Shown piece after piece: positions 53,598 to 62,171 of a stretch of 64,000 bases of DNA. The translations under genes were made by a program, and so were the position numbers. The notes under the pieces are model-generated. The model had not been told where the DNA came from and did not search any database. It saw only the letters and a program-made list of their open reading frames with translations. Within the stretch, counting starts at the first letter, position 1. Every line of letters begins with the position of its first letter. Source of the stretch: Escherichia phage ManiMatter_Bas94; sequence record PQ850617.1, one strand, 5' to 3'.

Positions 53598-53677
53598 TGA
53601 GGATGACAGGATTTGAACCTGCATACTCCAATTACTTCTTTAACGACCGCTTAGAAGGCGGGGAAGATACATCCTCA
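53598..53677 (-). tRNA. tRNA-like element (possible degenerate tRNA-Arg UCU); non-canonical by eye
   Basis: The minus strand has a 7-8 bp acceptor stem GAGGATG/CATCCTC, a perfect T arm GCAGG-TTCAAAT-CCTGT, and a hairpin CCGC-CTTCTAA-GCGG with an anticodon-like loop (UCU). I could not fold a D arm: only 7 nt lie between the acceptor stem and that hairpin, and 23 nt follow it. Confidence 0.4.
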
Positions 53678-54661: not shown

Positions 54662-54958
54662 TTACTTGTCGGCTTCAATCTCTTGATGCTTAGCTATAGC
54701 TACTCGCAAGTCCTCATTAGCACGAGTAAGGCGTAATACTTCATGGTTGAGATTCTGAAGACGCTTGTTTCTATCTTCAACTTGCGTAATAAGATCATTA
54801 AGAGTTGCTTTAACTTTCTCATTATACATCTCATCCACTCGGACTAGAGATTTGTACATTCTCTCCCAGCTTGCTGCTTTGTTCCTAAGGATAATAAATC
54901 CTATAACGCTGATAGTTAAACAGCTTACAAAAAGGAATTTATATATCTCTAAAGTCAT
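54662..54958 (-). CDS. Membrane-anchored coiled-coil protein (98 aa)
   Basis: TMD FLFVSCLTISVIGFIIL followed by heptad repeats. Confidence 0.45.
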   Translation of the reverse strand: MTLEIYKFLFVSCLTISVIGFIILRNKAASWERMYKSLVRVDEMYNEKVKATLNDLITQVEDRNKRLQNLNHEVLRLTRANEDLRVAIAKHQEIEADK

Positions 54959-55157
54959 ATTATTTACCCTTTATCAGAGATTAAAAGTAATATTATTTAA
55001 GTAAGTTATATTTAGTAAACTTATTTTCTAAGAAATTTTCAAAGGGTCTATATACAGAGCATTACCCATAGTCCCAGAACACTACCATCTTTTTCAATAA
55101 ATTTACTAAGTGGTTGGTTTATAAAGGAATTTAGTTTGTCAAATCTGGCACTAGTGA

Positions 55158-55547
55158 TTATTCCCTAGAGCTATTATCGAACACTAAATCACCACAATAC
55201 ATAGGATTGGCATACCATTTTGGCACCCCTTCGCTCTTACTCTGAAAGTAAGTCCCACTGTACAGCGGAACATAATTCTTCTTAAGGGCACGTTTAGCAA
55301 GTCTCTCGCTTTCTCCAATGGCTTGCTTAGTCATCGGATTTTTATCACGAATCAGCTTTACATAACGTTTATAAGGTTTCTCCTGTTTTAATAGTACCGG
55401 AATCCACTCAAACTGGTTCTTTTGTCTTATCACCTGTTCAGCGGTCAGTTTTCGTTGGGCCATTCTATTTATCACGGTATCCGCAACCATAGCCTTACAT
55501 GCGGTTGGCTGATTCCCTGCCTCATAATAAATAGTCAATGTCAACAT
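55158..55547 (-). CDS. SleB-type cell-wall hydrolase (Hydrolase_2)
   Basis: LTIYYEAGNQPTACKAMVADTVINRMAQRK..AEQVIRQKNQFEW follows the SleB family pattern. Confidence 0.65.
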   Translation of the reverse strand: MLTLTIYYEAGNQPTACKAMVADTVINRMAQRKLTAEQVIRQKNQFEWIPVLLKQEKPYKRYVKLIRDKNPMTKQAIGESERLAKRALKKNYVPLYSGTYFQSKSEGVPKWYANPMYCGDLVFDNSSRE

Positions 55548-58530: not shown

Positions 58531-58562
58531 AAAGGCGCTACCCGTTAAAGATAGCGCCTCAT
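58531..58562 (-). terminator. Rho-independent terminator after the first early gene
   Basis: Minus strand reads aggcgcta-tctttaacgg-tagcgcct followed by tttcttttatc. Confidence 0.7.
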
Positions 58563-58582: not shown

Positions 58583-59482
58583 TTATGCCGCCTGACGTGC
58601 CGCCATAATTTCAGCCGCTTTGCGCAATACTTCTTCCTCTTCTGCTTTCGCCGCTTGTTCGGTACGGGTAGCAACCGTTGAAGAGATACGACCGCGCAGA
58701 CTTTCTAACTTCTCTTGCATAGCTGCGATGGTCTTTTCCATTTCATCAGCGTATGAGTCCAGTGATTCTAGTTCCTTGCTCGATGCGTTCATCAGATAAT
58801 CATCAGAGATCGCTACCGTTGAGGCCGTCACTTTCTTGATGAGTGAGTCGAATGACTTCTTAACCTTGCCGACTTCTTCACTTAAGGCAATAGTGTTATC
58901 ACTGGTAGCGCCGTTGCGCTCATCGGCCAACAATTTTGCTTCAATACGGATTGCATTCAAGCGTTCAACTAAAGCGTAAATATCCTGATTAAAATCTTCC
59001 TTGTTTTTCGCCGGTATTTGAAGGTGTGCCGCCACGTTGTCATTGCAACCTTTGTAGAAGTTAGGATTATCCACTTCAATTGCACGACCTAAAGCAAAAT
59101 TCTCGAAAGCATTCGACCAGCGAGCGCGGTTTTGTTCCATTTTGGCCTTAATTTGCGCTTCTTTCGCATCTTCTTTCGCTTTCGCTTCACCTTCCAGATT
59201 AATCCATTTTTTACGACCGTTCGCCGCCTCGGTATTAAACTTGATTGGAGTAAGGAAAGTAATTGCAGTGGCAATAACATCCATATCGCGGAAACGTTCA
59301 GTTAACAGAAAATCGACCGCCGACTGCAATACATCTAATTTCTTGCCGTTGCTGCGGAAGTGCTGCAAATGACCTAACAGAAAGTTAGAAACATCTTGCT
59401 TAATCGCCGCGTTATTGCTACGGATGTTGTTTGCCAGTGCATTGAAACCGGATTCTTTTACCAGATTAAAAACTTTAGCCAT
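58583..59482 (-). CDS. First early protein (299 aa), helical, unknown function
   Basis: ATG 59482 is preferred (aaggtg, 7 nt). It is the first ORF downstream of the promoter array. GC- and CpG-richer than the rest of the window, judged by eye. Confidence 0.5.
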   Translation of the reverse strand: MAKVFNLVKESGFNALANNIRSNNAAIKQDVSNFLLGHLQHFRSNGKKLDVLQSAVDFLLTERFRDMDVIATAITFLTPIKFNTEAANGRKKWINLEGEAKAKEDAKEAQIKAKMEQNRARWSNAFENFALGRAIEVDNPNFYKGCNDNVAAHLQIPAKNKEDFNQDIYALVERLNAIRIEAKLLADERNGATSDNTIALSEEVGKVKKSFDSLIKKVTASTVAISDDYLMNASSKELESLDSYADEMEKTIAAMQEKLESLRGRISSTVATRTEQAAKAEEEEVLRKAAEIMAARQAA

Positions 59483-60301
59483 GATATTCACCTTTCAATT
59501 ATAAGGGCACTATTGCCCCGCTCGCTATGAGCTTTCAAGCCATTATTGACTTAACTATAAACGCTCACTATAAACGCTTATAGGTAAGCGGAGCGGTCTT
59601 ATCAGGAGTTAACCTTGCCGCTCCCTTATCCGTGATGTTTCATCTGGTATCTTTAATTAGTCGCTATAAATAAAGCCGACTTGATAGCGATGATCAATCA
59701 TCACAATAAGGCCAGTGTGTCCGACTCAATTTAATTACATTACTGTAACCGTCGGCAATATCGTTTACTCTGCTTTCGCTCCCGCCTATCCTTTTGTATC
59801 AGCTCTTTATCGCTAGTCATCGCCCACTACGGGATACTATTGCGAAAAAGTCACTAACCGCCTAATATTCCGGCGTTTTATATCTTTCGGCAAGTTTACT
59901 ACACAACACGACTATGTACTTTCATCCTAAGACGAATATCAAGCCGCTCACGTCGTAAACGTTCACACTAAAACCTTATTGTTAAATAGCAATTTGCCAC
60001 TTTTTAACCGTTCGCCGCCGCCCTCAATTGGGCGTTAATTCGTCGGGATTGTCTACCCTGATCAGTTTCTTTCATTGTAGCGCCTTTTTAGCTAGGCCGC
60101 CGCTACCCATTAACCGTGGGCGATTAGTTTTAGCCTTGCGTGCACTCAATGATTCCGCTTACCAGTGGTGACGTTTCCAGTTAAGGGATTGTAAAGCTGT
60201 TTACCCTGATAATTTAGGGAGCTTTACGCCGTTTTATCTGGTATGTTTTCCGATGGTCATTATCATCCAACATATGCAACCGATATAGGGGAACGTTTAA
60301 A

Positions 60302-60314
60302 TTATTAAAGAGCG
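60302..60314 (-). promoter_or_regulatory. boxA-like element 1 (CGCTCTTTAATAA)
   Basis: Minus-strand sequence about 90 nt downstream of the predicted P1 start. Compare rrn boxA TGCTCTTTAACAA. Confidence 0.55.
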
Positions 60315-60408
60315 GTAAATCTGTCAGTGTGCTTTCTCACACTACGCAACTGTTAGCCGTTGTGTCGCTTTTTCACTGAAGCGGTGATTTGCTTAGTGAC
60401 TTGTGCTT

Positions 60409-60437
60409 ATTATGAATCATTTTGCTTCCGCCGTCAA
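60409..60437 (-). promoter_or_regulatory. Sigma70 promoter P1 (TTGACG-17-CATAAT)
   Basis: Read on the minus strand, with A-tracts upstream (gatgaaaaaagattaaaaaagtga). Confidence 0.7.
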
Positions 60438-60541
60438 TCACTTTTTTAATCTTTTTTCATCGTTCCCGCTGTTGGGAAGATATATCAATCAGCTATATTT
60501 GATTGAAGATTAAGCGATCAGGCTTGAACTTATGATTCATA

Positions 60542-60554
60542 TTTTTAAAGAGCG
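60542..60554 (-). promoter_or_regulatory. boxA-like element 2 (CGCTCTTTAAAAA)
   Basis: Lies 13-25 nt downstream of the predicted P2 start. Confidence 0.55.
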
Positions 60555-60573
60555 GTTTTTCTGACTTGTGATC

Positions 60574-60602
60574 AGTATAAACTTACTTTCTCACGTTGTC
60601 AA
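60574..60602 (-). promoter_or_regulatory. Sigma70 promoter P2 (TTGACA-17-TATACT)
   Basis: Read on the minus strand, with an A-tract upstream (gataaaaaagagat). Confidence 0.75.
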
Positions 60603-60676
60603 TCTCTTTTTTATCGTCTTCTTTGATTCTCTTCCCTTATCTCGCGTGAATCTATGCGAAAGGGCAAGACGATAAA

Positions 60677-60689
60677 TTTTTAAAGAGCG
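60677..60689 (-). promoter_or_regulatory. boxA-like element 3 (CGCTCTTTAAAAATTTATCG)
   Basis: Lies 28-40 nt downstream of P3. The similarity extends to the rrn leader TGCTCTTTAACAATTTATCA (from memory). Confidence 0.6.
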
Positions 60690-60723
60690 GGATTTTTTAA
60701 GTCATCGCTGACCTTGTACACTC

Positions 60724-60752
60724 ATTATAGGTTAGGCTTTTTCCGGTGTCAA
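60724..60752 (-). promoter_or_regulatory. Sigma70 promoter P3 (TTGACA-17-TATAAT, full consensus)
   Basis: Minus strand reads ttgaca ccggaaaaagcctaacc tataat. Confidence 0.85.
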
Positions 60753-60771
60753 TATTCTTTTTCAGAATATT
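60751..60771 (-). promoter_or_regulatory. boxB-like hairpin A (AAUAUUCU-GAAAA-AGAAUAUU)
   Basis: 8-bp stem with a GAAAA pentaloop closed by U-A, 17 nt downstream of boxA 4. It overlaps the UP/-35 edge of P3. Confidence 0.45.
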
Positions 60772-60788
60772 TTCACTTTCTAGCCTGA

Positions 60789-60801
60789 TTTTTAAAGAGC
60801 G
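60789..60801 (-). promoter_or_regulatory. boxA-like element 4 (CGCTCTTTAAAAA)
   Basis: Downstream of P4 and followed by hairpin A. Confidence 0.55.
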
Positions 60802-60944
60802 TTTAAAGCTGTATGGCTCCCATAACACCACTTGATGATCAGTTAACCTACGATCATTCAGGACTATAGTACCCGCTTAGTTGCGTCTGACTTGCTTCAC
60901 TCACTAGGGAGTTACTTGAGCGGTCATCTTGTCTTTCTAAGCTC

Positions 60945-60972
60945 ATTATAGGTTAGGCTTTTCAGTTGTCAA
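60945..60972 (-). promoter_or_regulatory. Sigma70 promoter P4 (TTGACA-16-TATAAT)
   Basis: Part of a roughly 80-bp direct repeat with the P3 unit (60721-60802 versus 60942-61022). Confidence 0.8.
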
Positions 60973-60990
60973 ATACTTTTTCAAGTATTT
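60971..60990 (-). promoter_or_regulatory. boxB-like hairpin B (AAAUACUU-GAAA-AAGUAUUU)
   Basis: 8-bp stem with a GNRA loop, 18 nt downstream of boxA 5. The stem differs from hairpin A at several positions but stays complementary. Confidence 0.45.
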
Positions 60991-61008
60991 TTTCACTTTC
61001 TAGCCTAC

Positions 61009-61021
61009 TTTTTAAAGAGCG
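61009..61021 (-). promoter_or_regulatory. boxA-like element 5 (CGCTCTTTAAAAA)
   Basis: Lies 41-53 nt downstream of the predicted P5 start. Confidence 0.55.
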
Positions 61022-61068
61022 GGGCAATTTCTTGCCTTGTATGTTTTACATCGTACCCGATGGAAATG

Positions 61069-61096
61069 AGTATACGCGAGCCTTTAGAAAGTGCAA
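61069..61096 (-). promoter_or_regulatory. Sigma70 promoter P5 (TTGCAC-16-TATACT)
   Basis: Read on the minus strand, with AT-rich sequence upstream. Confidence 0.55.
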
Positions 61097-61254
61097 TAGG
61101 GGAAAGCAAATTATTTTAAACTTTTTCACTGTAGGGAAGATAGAAGAGCGGGCTGACGTGGTACACCATAGGAAACGGCTTGTAAAGCGATAATAGGCGG
61201 CCTAAAACGCACCACAATGAGCTAAAAGGGGATAAGGTATATAATCACCTTAGA

Positions 61255-61303: not shown

Positions 61304-61555
61304 TCACCATTTAGGCAAATCTGCATCAAGTAGGCCAGCAAGTGACAATTCACCGTCAACATATATCGATCTGAAATCGTCCCGATTGATATCAATGCGT
61401 ACCATTTGCAGCCATTTTTTGGCCTCGTTAAAGCTCATTGAGCAAAAAGAAACCGTGGGCAATATTACGTCACCATTTTGCAAGCCGAACGCGATAAAAG
61501 TATCGCACACGCAGCAAGAAAGACCGTTCGACAATTTAATCTCTTTGATACTCAT
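61304..61555 (-). CDS. Hypothetical protein (83 aa), paralog of 56270..56515
   Basis: Full-length similarity to 56270..56515, roughly 60 percent aa identity by eye. Confidence 0.5.
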   Translation of the reverse strand: MSIKEIKLSNGLSCCVCDTFIAFGLQNGDVILPTVSFCSMSFNEAKKWLQMVRIDINRDDFRSIYVDGELSLAGLLDADLPKW

Positions 61556-61997: not shown

Positions 61998-62171
61998 TTA
62001 ATGCATATATCATTATTGCACTCATAATTATCACCATTGAAACTATTTACATTCAAACTATGGGGGATGGCGATAGTTGCTATCCGGTATTAATAGCCTC
62101 AATATAATCAAGCATTAACAATGGCTAGCCTTTCCCATACTCTTTTAAGGGGCACTAAATAAACGGGTATT

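What the first reader, a model, noticed from the sequence alone, without database searches (positions are those of the whole stretch)
59483..60402. Roughly 0.9-kb ORF-free, structure-rich leader between the promoter array and the first early gene
From the predicted P1 start (about 60402) to ATG 59482, the minus strand contains only ORFs of 26 codons or fewer, none with a convincing SD. The rest of the genome is packed with ATGA-type overlaps, so this gap stands out.

The segment is GC- and CpG-richer by eye and carries several stems:
- GGAGCGG...CCGCTCC at 59590-59624
- AGTGTG-ctttctc-CACACT at 60326-60344
- GTAGCG...CGCTAC at 60077-60105

An untranslated kilobase is normally a Rho target, which fits the upstream boxA array. 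Alternatively it could encode abundant early ncRNA(s), an RNase III processing region like the T7 early leader, or a decoy or sponge RNA.
Basis: seen in the sequence. Interest (0 to 1): 0.55.

Follow-up and report, generated by a model that had tools for sequence, protein, structure and literature searches.

The report
Large structured early RNA in coliphages
The "empty" kilobase in front of the first early gene of this phiEco32-like coliphage encodes a large, intricately folded non-coding RNA, preceded by a ribosomal-RNA-style anti-termination signal, that is conserved in about 100 phage genomes, matches no RNA family in Rfam, and was not described in any paper I could read.

Summary
Window 59483-60402 (minus strand) has no ORF longer than 26 codons, no codon periodicity and no conserved reading frame. 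Yet it evolves at about half the rate of neighbouring third-codon positions.

It is the template of a roughly 0.9-kb structured RNA:
- Its folding energy gives z = -6.9, against +0.14 for the adjacent gene.
- The consensus fold of 22 phages has 234 base pairs in 41 helices. 99% of cells are paired and 80 pairs carry compensatory double changes (shuffles give 42 ± 3; slid controls give 8-11).
- About 10% G-U pairs place the fold on the transcribed strand.
- The fold persists in uncultivated relatives with only about 50% sequence identity.

About 90 nt after the last of four or five tandem sigma-70 promoters lies a covarying hairpin followed by a boxA that matches the rRNA-operon consensus. Four more boxA copies sit in the promoter array. 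An intrinsic terminator follows the next gene (the gp124 homologue).

Best reading: host RNA polymerase, modified by Nus factors at boxA, synthesises a large functional RNA as the first product of infection. The RNA's role is unknown; it could act in cis on gp124 or in trans as an RNP or decoy. It matches no Rfam family.

The parts
60409..60972 (-). Array of four near-consensus sigma-70 promoters (hexamer spans 60972-60945, 60752-60724, 60602-60574, 60437-60409). A fifth, weaker TTGCAC-17-TATACT lies near 61096.
   Evidence: 12, 12, 11 and 10 of 12 matches. for the fifth. The modules are tandem duplicates. [quoted passage not shown]
60543..61020 (-). Four upstream boxA copies (61020-61010, 60800-60790, 60688-60678, 60553-60543), each GCTCTTTAAAA.
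   Evidence: All match GYTCTTTAANA (PMC5725501).
60347..60362 (-). 5' hairpin CAAC-GGCTAACA-GTTG.
   Evidence: Helix 3. AU changes to CG in 3 genomes. Conserved in group B.
60326..60343 (-). boxB-like hairpin (loop AGAAAG) immediately 5' of boxA.
   Evidence: Helix 4: 3 of 6 pairs have compensatory changes. A hairpin at the same place, with a different stem sequence, is present in all distant relatives.
60303..60313 (-). Leader boxA GCTCTTTAATA. The invariant block AGATTTACCGCTCTTTAA spans 60322-60305.
   Evidence: The 19-mer GCTCTTTAAYAATTTAAAC also occurs 189-352 nt upstream of 16S rRNA 5' ends at 20 sites in metagenome contigs.
60003..60301 (-). Domain I. The closing helix is 60301-60289 / 60015-60003. 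It encloses helices 6-18, including long-range 60283-60280 / 60046-60043 and the long arm 60172-60142 / 60083-60051.
   Evidence: helices 5-18; 26 pairs with double changes. Helix 6 stays 90-95% paired in distant groups.
59984..60002 (-). Hairpin AAAGTGGCA-AAT-TGCTATTT, carrying the invariant boxA-like GCTATTTAACAA (59990-59979).
   Evidence: Helix 19. Invariant run 59994-59982.
59703..59982 (-). Domain II. The closing helix is 59982-59972 / 59712-59703. Nested long-range helices are 59968-59964 / 59719-59715 and 59961-59955 / 59768-59762. The variable sub-domain is 59946-59798.
   Evidence: Helices 20-32. On alignment A3, helix 25 (59961-59955 / 59768-59762) is 90.6% paired with 6 of 7 pairs compensatory across groups. 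Phage LAMP replaces part of the variable sub-domain.
59632..59704 (-). Long 3'-domain hairpin (18 bp outer stem 59704-59683 / 59651-59632, plus 7 bp inner stem 59681-59674 / 59665-59659, loop TTATTTAT).
   Evidence: paired in 98% (A), 100% (B) and 93% (C) of cells. All 18 + 7 pairs were recovered by an independent prediction on the distant sequences.
59590..59624 (-).
   Evidence: Helix 36, (5 of 7 pairs compensatory). 93% paired across groups (helix 38).
59504..59583 (-). Four terminal hairpins: 59583-59555, 59553-59536, 59532-59520 and 59519-59504. The last sits about 10 nt before the SD.
   Evidence: Helices 38-41. The 59583-59555 hairpin is 94.6% paired with 9 of 10 pairs compensatory across groups (helix 41).
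59480..59494 (-). Shine-Dalgarno AAGGTG (59494-59489) and ATG (59482-59480) of the gp124 homologue. Both are unpaired in the consensus fold.
58583..59482 (-). gp124-homologue CDS (299 aa, function unknown). It is always found directly downstream of the leader.
   Evidence: (phrog_13018). AF2 pLDDT 84, with no informative fold match.
58532..58560 (-). Intrinsic terminator that closes the promoter-leader-gp124 unit.
   Evidence: 12-bp stem, 6 GC pairs, T-tract. A terminator is annotated at the same place in SU7.

Best explanation
The interval is the gene for a roughly 0.9-kb, multi-domain, non-coding RNA. This RNA forms the 5' part of the first early transcription unit of phiEco32-like phages: tandem sigma-70 promoters, then leader RNA, then the gp124 homologue, then an intrinsic terminator.

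Shown here:
- The segment is non-coding but under purifying selection.
- Its transcript-sense strand folds into about 41 helices in three domains, with long-range closing helices. The base pairs are maintained by compensatory substitutions.
- The loops and junctions are as conserved as the stems.
- The same architecture is kept in uncultivated relatives whose leader has drifted to about 50% identity: a promoter, about 100 nt, a hairpin plus boxA, 830-900 nt of structured RNA, then gp124.

Inferred:
- Host RNA polymerase starting at the promoters transcribes the hairpin-boxA signal.
- NusB/NusE(S10), together with NusA, NusG and SuhB, assemble on it as at rRNA operons.
- The modified polymerase is resistant to Rho over the untranslated kilobase and helps the long-range helices to form.
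- The folded RNA is itself the functional product of this stretch, made in large amounts in the first minutes of infection.

My preferred role is an early host-takeover RNA that works as an RNP or decoy, possibly with gp124 or a host protein. A secondary effect would be on the stability or translation of the gp124 message it is fused to.
For: Non-coding and constrained:
- No ORF longer than 26 codons.
- No codon periodicity. Leader diversity is about 0.16, against 0.33 at gp124 third-codon positions.
- Present at full length (905-946 nt) in all 97 related phage records.

Structure:
- z = -6.9, against +0.14 for the coding control.
- The fold has 234 pairs, of which 80 are compensatory.
- 99.0% of cells are paired, against 92.6% in shuffles. 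80 pairs have double changes, against 42.1 +/- 3.4. 362 cells have double changes, against 97.8. All are 0/500, and slid controls give 8-11 pairs.

Strand: 10.6% of pairs are G-U. Pairing is 99.0% canonical on the transcribed strand and 88.8% on the opposite strand.

Independent validation:
- The structure derived from Kuraviruses alone is 76.7% and 62.7% canonical in two distant groups aligned by sequence only. Slid controls give 35-46%.
- An independent alifold run on the distant sequences shares 69 of its 126 pairs exactly, against 0 for shifted controls.
- On a 13-sequence alignment with 52% column identity: 73.8% paired against 59.0% in shuffles, 159 compensatory pairs against 115, and covariation score 0.409 against 0.191. 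All are 0/500.

Conservation of unpaired columns: diversity 0.136, 57% invariant.

boxA:
- Five matches to GYTCTTTAANA on the transcribed strand, against 0.83 expected (consensus from PMC5725501).
- The leader boxA block is invariant in the 22 Kuravirus-group leaders, and every relative examined has a boxA at the same place.
- The same 19-mer lies 189-352 nt upstream of 16S genes in metagenomes.
- BoxA is known to protect long untranslated CRISPR transcripts from Rho (PMC7665894).

Transcription unit: promoters and flanking terminators.
Against: - There is no transcript data. Start sites, abundance, processing and the existence of a discrete RNA species are all inferred.
- No terminator or recognisable processing site separates the RNA from gp124, so it may act only in cis.
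- No boxC-like element follows boxA. The boxA elements have not been shown to bind NusB/E.
- The leader is not unusually C-rich or C-poor relative to coding sequence, so its need for anti-Rho protection is an assumption.
- The consensus fold was chosen by RNAalifold on the same alignment on which it was first counted. This is mitigated by the independent groups.
- Domain I is poorly aligned in the distant groups, so its conservation there is less certain.
- The gp124-leader linkage was ascertained through gp124, so co-occurrence is shown in one direction only.
Confidence: 0.6

Rival explanations
1. It is purely a cis-acting 5' UTR. The folded leader exists only to control the gp124 message. 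It would protect the 5' end from RNase E, set translation efficiency or timing through the conserved hairpin next to the SD, and keep Rho off. It would have no function once detached.
For: - The leader is always fused to gp124, with no terminator between them.
- A hairpin about 10 nt upstream of the SD is conserved in all groups.
- gp124 is unusually conserved for an early gene, at 96-98% aa identity within Kuraviruses.
- The leader and gp124 share a CpG excess.
Against: - A fold of 900 nt and about 41 helices, with long-range domains and invariant junctions, is far beyond the bacterial cis-regulatory leaders I know of (background knowledge).
- The SD and AUG are unpaired in the consensus fold, so no obvious switch is seen.
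- Unpaired nucleotides far from the SD are invariant.
Confidence: 0.25
2. It is a passive transcribed spacer. What matters is transcription through this DNA, for example polymerase-driven pulling of the genome into the cell as in T7, or a timing delay. On this view the RNA is merely selected to be compact, so that Rho and RNases cannot engage it.
For: - The tandem strong early promoters followed by a long untranslated stretch resemble the T7 A1-A2-A3 arrangement (from background knowledge).
- boxA would make polymerase fast and processive.
- The RNA is thermodynamically very stable.
Against: - Selection for generic compactness does not explain invariant single-stranded motifs.
- It does not explain conservation of the same helices and domain topology at about 50% identity.
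- It does not explain the conserved length in all 97 genomes.
Confidence: 0.08
3. It is a transcription-primed replication origin. A structured early transcript would form a persistent RNA-DNA hybrid that primes phage DNA synthesis, in the manner of ColE1 RNA II or the T4 oriF and oriG origins.
For: - It is a large non-coding region near the divergence of the early and late gene clusters.
- It is a structured transcript with a G-rich run (GGGCGGCGGCG, 60025-60013).
- The cumulative GC skew flattens near 60000-60300.
Against: - The G-run is not conserved in the distant groups.
- No iterons or AT-rich unwinding element were seen. The direct repeats found are promoter modules.
- The skew minimum for the window lies further on, near 62000.
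- The tight linkage to gp124 and the boxA logic are not explained.
Confidence: 0.05
4. It holds hidden small proteins. The region would encode micro-ORFs that were missed by annotation.
For: PHANOTATE-based annotation of phage pEC-N1203-2Af.1 calls several 30-40 codon ORFs here.
Against: - There is no three-base periodicity of substitutions in any 150-nt window.
- ORFs differ in frame and strand among genomes.
- Most curated annotations leave the region empty.
- Substitutions follow base-pairing rather than codons.
Confidence: 0.02

Closest known systems
E. coli rRNA-operon leader antitermination signal (boxB hairpin - boxA - boxC; Nus factor / SuhB / S4 complex)
   Same: - A hairpin followed by a boxA that matches the consensus (GCTCTTTAAYAATTT is also identical to the E. 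coli rrn leader sequence as I recall it).
- It sits shortly after strong sigma-70 promoters arranged in tandem.
- It precedes a long, untranslated, highly structured RNA with long-range helices.
- No phage N-like factor is evident.
   Different: - It is on a virulent phage.
- No boxC was found.
- The RNA behind it is unrelated to rRNA and is followed by a protein gene.
- Factor binding is untested.
BoxA elements upstream of CRISPR arrays and suhB (Stringer 2020 PMC7665894; Baniulyte 2017 PMC5725501)
   Same: A stand-alone boxA is used outside rRNA to carry polymerase through a long untranslated transcript, or to regulate a downstream gene.
   Different: - Here there are five copies, in duplicated promoter modules.
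- The protected RNA is a single large fold rather than a repeat array.
- It is a phage rather than a chromosomal context.
Lambda nut sites / HK022 put RNAs
   Same: These are phage-encoded RNA signals near early promoters that make host polymerase termination-resistant.
   Different: - In lambda, boxA precedes boxB and needs N protein. In this phage the hairpin comes before boxA, and no N homologue was noticed.
- put RNAs are about 70-nt two-stem elements without boxA.
- Neither is followed by a 0.9-kb conserved fold.
T7 early leader (promoters A1-A3, RNase III site R0.3)
   Same: - Tandem strong host-polymerase promoters at the start of the early region.
- An untranslated leader before the first early gene.
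- A possible processing hairpin, with 59704-59632 as the candidate.
   Different: - From background knowledge, the T7 leader is about 400 nt and is not known as a conserved multi-domain fold.
- It has no boxA.
- RNase III cleavage is untested for this leader.
Large ornate bacterial and phage RNAs (GOLLD, ROOL, OLE, raiA; cryo-EM structures in PMC12286853)
   Same: - Size class of 600-900 nt.
- Dozens of covarying helices, with highly conserved unpaired nucleotides.
- Association with phages (GOLLD, ROOL).
- Unknown function.
   Different: - No sequence or structure match to any of them (Rfam cmscan).
- It is found in virulent coliphages.
- It is fused to an mRNA and coupled to boxA.
- Oligomerisation is unknown.

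Membership tests
rrn-type BoxA (NusB/NusE-binding) element | Match to the 11-nt gamma-proteobacterial consensus GYTCTTTAANA. | tested here: met
   Five perfect matches on the transcribed strand at 61020, 60800, 60688, 60553 and 60313. The core is enriched, 6 observed against 0.83 expected. The consensus is from PMC5725501.
rrn-type BoxA (NusB/NusE-binding) element | Located in the transcript, shortly downstream of a promoter and upstream of the RNA to be protected. | tested here: met
   Each copy lies 40-110 nt downstream of a consensus promoter. The promoters are predicted, not mapped, in this genome.
rrn-type BoxA (NusB/NusE-binding) element | Evolutionary conservation of the element. | tested here: met
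   The block AGATTTACCGCTCTTTAA is invariant in 22 genomes. A boxA lies at -870 to -972 from the ATG in all 10 distant relatives.
rrn-type BoxA (NusB/NusE-binding) element | Accompanying boxC (UGUGUGGG-like) as in rrn leaders. | tested here: not met
   No match with one mismatch or fewer within 150 nt of boxA in any group. boxC is not known to be required for boxA function outside rrn.
rrn-type BoxA (NusB/NusE-binding) element | Binds NusB/NusE and confers Rho resistance. | not testable with these tools
   Needs ChIP, EMSA, reporter fusions, nus mutants and bicyclomycin.
Lambda-type nut site | boxA followed by a boxB hairpin with a GAAAA or GAAGA loop that is bound by a phage N protein. | tested here: not met
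   The hairpin lies 5' of boxA. The loop is AGAAAG in Kuraviruses and different in other groups. No N-like gene was searched for systematically.
Any Rfam 15 family (including GOLLD, ROOL, OLE, HEARO, group I/II introns, RNase P, tmRNA, 6S, r-protein leaders) | Covariance-model score at or above the family gathering threshold. | tested here: not met
   No hit in the region at gathering score. At E <= 10 there are only sub-threshold chance hits of 12-22 bits against thresholds of 34-167.
Structured non-coding RNA (generic) | Compensatory base-pair substitutions beyond phylogenetic and positional controls. | tested here: met
   (all measures 0/500 shuffles, all but one; slid controls 4-10 times lower). 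Independent groups.
Structured non-coding RNA (generic) | Absence of protein-coding signal. | tested here: met
Structured non-coding RNA (generic) | Detected as a transcript or as a discrete RNA species. | not testable with these tools
   No expression data are available. The phiEco32 transcription papers (PMC3275717, PMC2587145) are not held.
T7-like RNase III-processed early leader | RNase III cleavage hairpin that releases the leader from the first mRNA. | tested here: inconclusive
   A 73-nt hairpin of about 25 bp with internal loops (59704-59632) is conserved in all groups, but no cleavage predictor or data are available.

The most novel reading that the evidence does not exclude
This would be a new class of large 'ornate' RNA, specific to virulent enterobacterial podophages (Gordonclarkvirinae and uncultivated relatives). 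It would be made as the very first and most abundant product of infection by an rRNA-style (boxA/Nus) transcription machine. It would act in trans as a ribonucleoprotein, ribozyme, decoy or self-assembling particle in host takeover or counter-defence, perhaps together with the co-inherited gp124 protein.
Probability: 0.35. Interest if true: 0.9.

Novelty: new variant of a known kind. Interest (0 to 1): 0.75.

Why it matters
- Very few natural RNAs above 500 nt with dozens of covarying helices are known. Nearly all of them turned out to be ribozymes, RNP scaffolds or self-assembling particles, and several (GOLLD, ROOL, OLE) still lack a function.
- This one sits in easily grown coliphages. BASEL isolates Bas86-93 plate on E. 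coli K-12 derivatives. Genetics, RNA-seq, chemical probing, pull-downs and cryo-EM are therefore all immediately feasible.
- It would also be an apparent case of a virulent phage using the host's N-independent, rRNA-type boxA antitermination and chaperone system. It would be a natural substrate for studying how the Nus complex folds long RNAs.
- For phage annotation, it shows that the 'spacer' left blank in about 100 GenBank records is a gene.

Tried and rejected
- Rfam at gathering and at E <= 10: nothing in the region. ARAGORN: nothing.
- Hidden ORFs: rejected by periodicity and frame inconsistency.
- A long-range pairing between the sequence just 5' of boxA and the SD was predicted by one RNAalifold run. 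It is rejected because it shows no covariation, and pairing falls to about 50% in distant groups.
- Similarity or complementarity of the leader to E. coli genomes: none.
- IMG/VR scans added only one new genome.
- The one metagenome scan, with the boxA 19-mer, returned mostly bacterial rrn leaders and about 7 more close relatives.
- A pseudoknot scan among unpaired columns gave nothing credible at this divergence.
- Structure-aware MAFFT (Q-INS-i) is not installed. Covariance models were not built because of the 400-column and time limits. Plain MAFFT alignments were used instead, which is conservative.
- Literature: no mention of this RNA in the SU10, 7-11, YF01 or BASEL papers. The two primary phiEco32 papers could not be read. 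The 2023 catalogue of phage candidate structured RNAs (PMC10690425) reports motifs of about 67 nt and may contain fragments of this RNA. I could not check this.
Full report
**Context.** The window is a phiEco32-like podophage of the Gordonclarkvirinae. Its closest relatives are Bas93 AidaStucki (94.6% identity) and LAMP. The finding's interval lies on the minus strand. In phiEco32 it corresponds to the 1.9-kb gap between genes 125 and 124 (NC_010324 72787-74730). Nearly every GenBank annotation leaves this gap empty. [quoted passage not shown] The two primary phiEco32 papers are not in the held library.

**Observation.**
- Between 60402 and the ATG at 59482 the longest minus-strand ORF is 26 codons.
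- In 21 aligned genomes the longest stop-free frames are mostly 45-75 codons (up to 90-98 in three genomes), and they fall in different frames and strands.
- Substitutions show no three-base periodicity (0.164/0.154/0.170 by phase). The adjacent gp124 gene shows the classic pattern (0.104/0.070/0.332).
- Even so, the leader diverges only about half as fast as gp124 third-codon positions.
- It is present at full length (905-946 nt) in all 97 related phage records, at 73-95% identity. The stretch is therefore non-coding but constrained.
- As a single sequence it folds far better than chance: -280.2 kcal/mol against -234.2 +/- 6.6 for shuffles, z = -6.9. The neighbouring 920 nt of coding RNA give z = +0.14.
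- GC content is not elevated (0.428 against 0.422). CpG is elevated (observed/expected 1.35 against 0.71), as it also is in gp124.

**RNA structure.**
- I aligned 22 leaders with MAFFT, using sequence only (A1). RNAalifold predicts 234 pairs in 41 helices, of which 80 pairs have compensatory double substitutions.
- Counting on that structure:
  - 99.0% of cells are standard pairs, against 92.6 +/- 0.2 in shuffles.
  - 80 pairs have double changes, against 42.1 +/- 3.4.
  - 362 cells have double changes, against 97.8 +/- 9.2.
  - The covariation score is 0.275, against 0.145. All four measures are 0/500.
  - Sliding the 3' partners by 1-3 columns drops pairing to 34-47% and compensatory pairs to 8-11.
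- 10.6% of paired cells are G-U. The fold is 99.0% canonical on the transcribed strand but 88.8% on the other strand, and the alifold energy is -459 against -387. The structure therefore belongs to the sense transcript.
- Unpaired columns are at least as conserved as paired ones (diversity 0.136 against 0.151; 57% invariant). This is the signature of RNAs with tertiary or protein contacts rather than of generic compaction.
The third is replaced by a covarying alternative.

**Independent test in distant relatives.**
- gp124 has homologues at about 70% (group B) and about 50% (group C) amino-acid identity on uncultivated 87-100-kb contigs. No cultured phage in the collection carries them.
- In all ten distinct loci the 1.4-3.4 kb upstream of the gene have no called gene.
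- Every one has a TTGACA...NATAAT promoter about 100 nt upstream of a hairpin plus boxA, which lies 870-972 nt before the ATG.
- The structure derived from the Kuravirus group alone was projected through a plain MAFFT alignment. It is 76.7% canonical in group B and 62.7% in group C, against 35-46% for slid controls.
- An RNAalifold run on the ten distant sequences alone reproduces 69 of its 126 pairs exactly, against 0 with shifted controls.
- A 13-sequence alignment with only 52% column identity (A3) was tested with the tool's controls:
  - 73.8% paired, against 59.0 +/- 0.6 in shuffles and 37-44% when slid.
  - 159 compensatory pairs, against 115 +/- 5.5.
  - 498 cells, against 206 +/- 12.
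  - Score 0.409, against 0.191. All are 0/500.
- The 3' domain is essentially fully conserved. It comprises the 59704-59632 long hairpin and the hairpins at 59624-59590 and 59583-59555.
- Long-range helices of domain II also hold (for example 59961-59955 / 59768-59762, 90.6% paired with 6 of 7 pairs compensatory).
- Domain I aligns poorly at this distance and is less certain.

**Antitermination signal.**
- The boxA core GCTCTTTAA occurs six times in the 64-kb window. Five copies are on the minus strand within 60305-61020, where 0.83 are expected in the whole window.
- All five match the published consensus GYTCTTTAANA (PMC5725501).
- Four sit behind the promoters of tandemly duplicated promoter modules.
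- The fifth (60313-60303) lies inside the finding's interval, about 90 nt after the last start site. It is within an 18-nt block that is invariant in the 22 aligned Kuravirus-group leaders.
- It is directly preceded by a hairpin whose stem covaries (helix 4) and whose counterpart exists in every distant relative. This hairpin-then-boxA order is that of rrn leaders, not of lambda nut sites.
- The 19-mer GCTCTTTAAYAATTTAAAC found more than 120 metagenome loci, mostly not phage. At 20 of these sites it lies 189-352 nt upstream of a 16S rRNA 5' end. The phage signal is thus indistinguishable from bona fide bacterial rrn boxA regions.
- No boxC-like element follows it.
- BoxA alone is known to carry polymerase through long untranslated CRISPR arrays (PMC7665894).

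**Transcription unit.** Four promoters score 10-12 of 12. An intrinsic terminator precedes the array (61282-61263). Another, with a 12-bp stem, follows gp124 (58560-58532). The unit is therefore promoters, leader, gp124, terminator.

**gp124.** It is 299 aa, with a basic N-terminal third and a long C-terminal coiled coil. It models well (pLDDT 84) but matches no family or fold.

**Interpretation.**
- Shown: the existence of a large, strand-specific, evolutionarily maintained RNA fold, and consensus boxA and promoter elements arranged as in an rRNA operon.
- Inferred: Nus-factor loading, Rho resistance, co-transcriptional chaperoning, high abundance, and any function of the folded RNA.
- I favour the view that the RNA itself is a functional early product (about 0.6 for the whole chain).
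- My confidence by step:
  - Structured RNA element is real: above 0.9.
  - boxA-dependent synthesis: about 0.7.
  - A role beyond cis control of gp124: about 0.5.
- Rivals, in order of my confidence:
  1. A purely cis-acting giant 5' UTR (0.25).
  2. A passive transcribed spacer, for example for genome entry (0.08).
  3. An R-loop origin (0.05).
  4. Micro-ORFs (0.02).

**Comparison and novelty.**
- In logic it is closest to the rrn leader plus rRNA.
- In form it is closest to the large ornate RNAs (GOLLD, ROOL, OLE), none of which it matches.
- I found no description of it in the papers that could be read. Fragments may be present anonymously in a 2023 catalogue of short phage RNA motifs.
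- I rate it a new variant of known kinds: a boxA-served non-coding transcript and a large structured phage RNA.
- It is of high interest because it is large, strongly supported, and sits in coliphages that grow on E. coli K-12.

Noticed in passing
window 58583-60402: The leader and the gp124 gene share a CpG excess (observed/expected 1.35 and 1.38), against 0.71 for the window and 0.80 for the other early genes. The module is compositionally distinct from the rest of the genome.
   Followed up: partly
window 60400-61100: The promoter-boxA modules are tandem duplicates: 63-nt and 33-nt repeats at 220-nt spacing, and a 52-nt repeat at 165-nt spacing. The number of modules differs among relatives (5 boxA copies in this genome, 2-3 in the uncultivated groups).
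   Followed up: partly
window 59974-59990: GCTATTTAACAATAAGG is nearly invariant in all groups. It resembles boxA but has A instead of the critical C at position 4. It lies partly in a hairpin and partly in the closing helix of domain II. It could be a second or decoy Nus site, or a coincidence.
   Followed up: no
window 60231-60248 / 59637-59654 and 60198-60215 / 60050-60067: There are two pairs of internally repeated RNA motifs, AUACCAGAURAAAC and AUCAGGGUARACA. Several hairpin loops are of the type (A)AUAG or AAUUG. These may be repeated protein-binding sites.
   Followed up: no
L019 (phage LAMP), equivalent of window 59835-59910: LAMP replaces part of the variable sub-domain of domain II with unrelated sequence about 30 nt longer. 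This is a natural indication that this sub-domain tolerates replacement.
   Followed up: partly
L038, L041, L042, L049, L051 (uncultivated 22-96-kb contigs), about 1-3 kb upstream of the gp124 homologue: The gene-free stretch is 3-3.4 kb, about 2 kb more than promoter plus leader. Its content was not analysed. It could be more promoter modules or further RNA.
   Followed up: no
window 53598-53676 (minus): Rfam calls a tRNA here (33.4 bits, threshold 29), but ARAGORN finds no tRNA anywhere in the window.
   Followed up: no
window 61304-61555 (minus): An 83-aa ORF is annotated 'polymerase' in several records and by PHROG phrog_14176. This label is implausible for a protein of that size.
   Followed up: no
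window 54750-55199: A low-GC patch (0.28-0.30) within an otherwise 0.38-0.47 GC region.
   Followed up: no
L004 (SU7), L006-L008, L013: equivalent of window about 60690: In some relatives the upstream boxA copies are also preceded by a short GC hairpin (GGCACTTAGTGCC-CCGCTCTTTAACAA). The hairpin-boxA pairing is therefore a recurring module, not unique to the leader copy.
   Followed up: no
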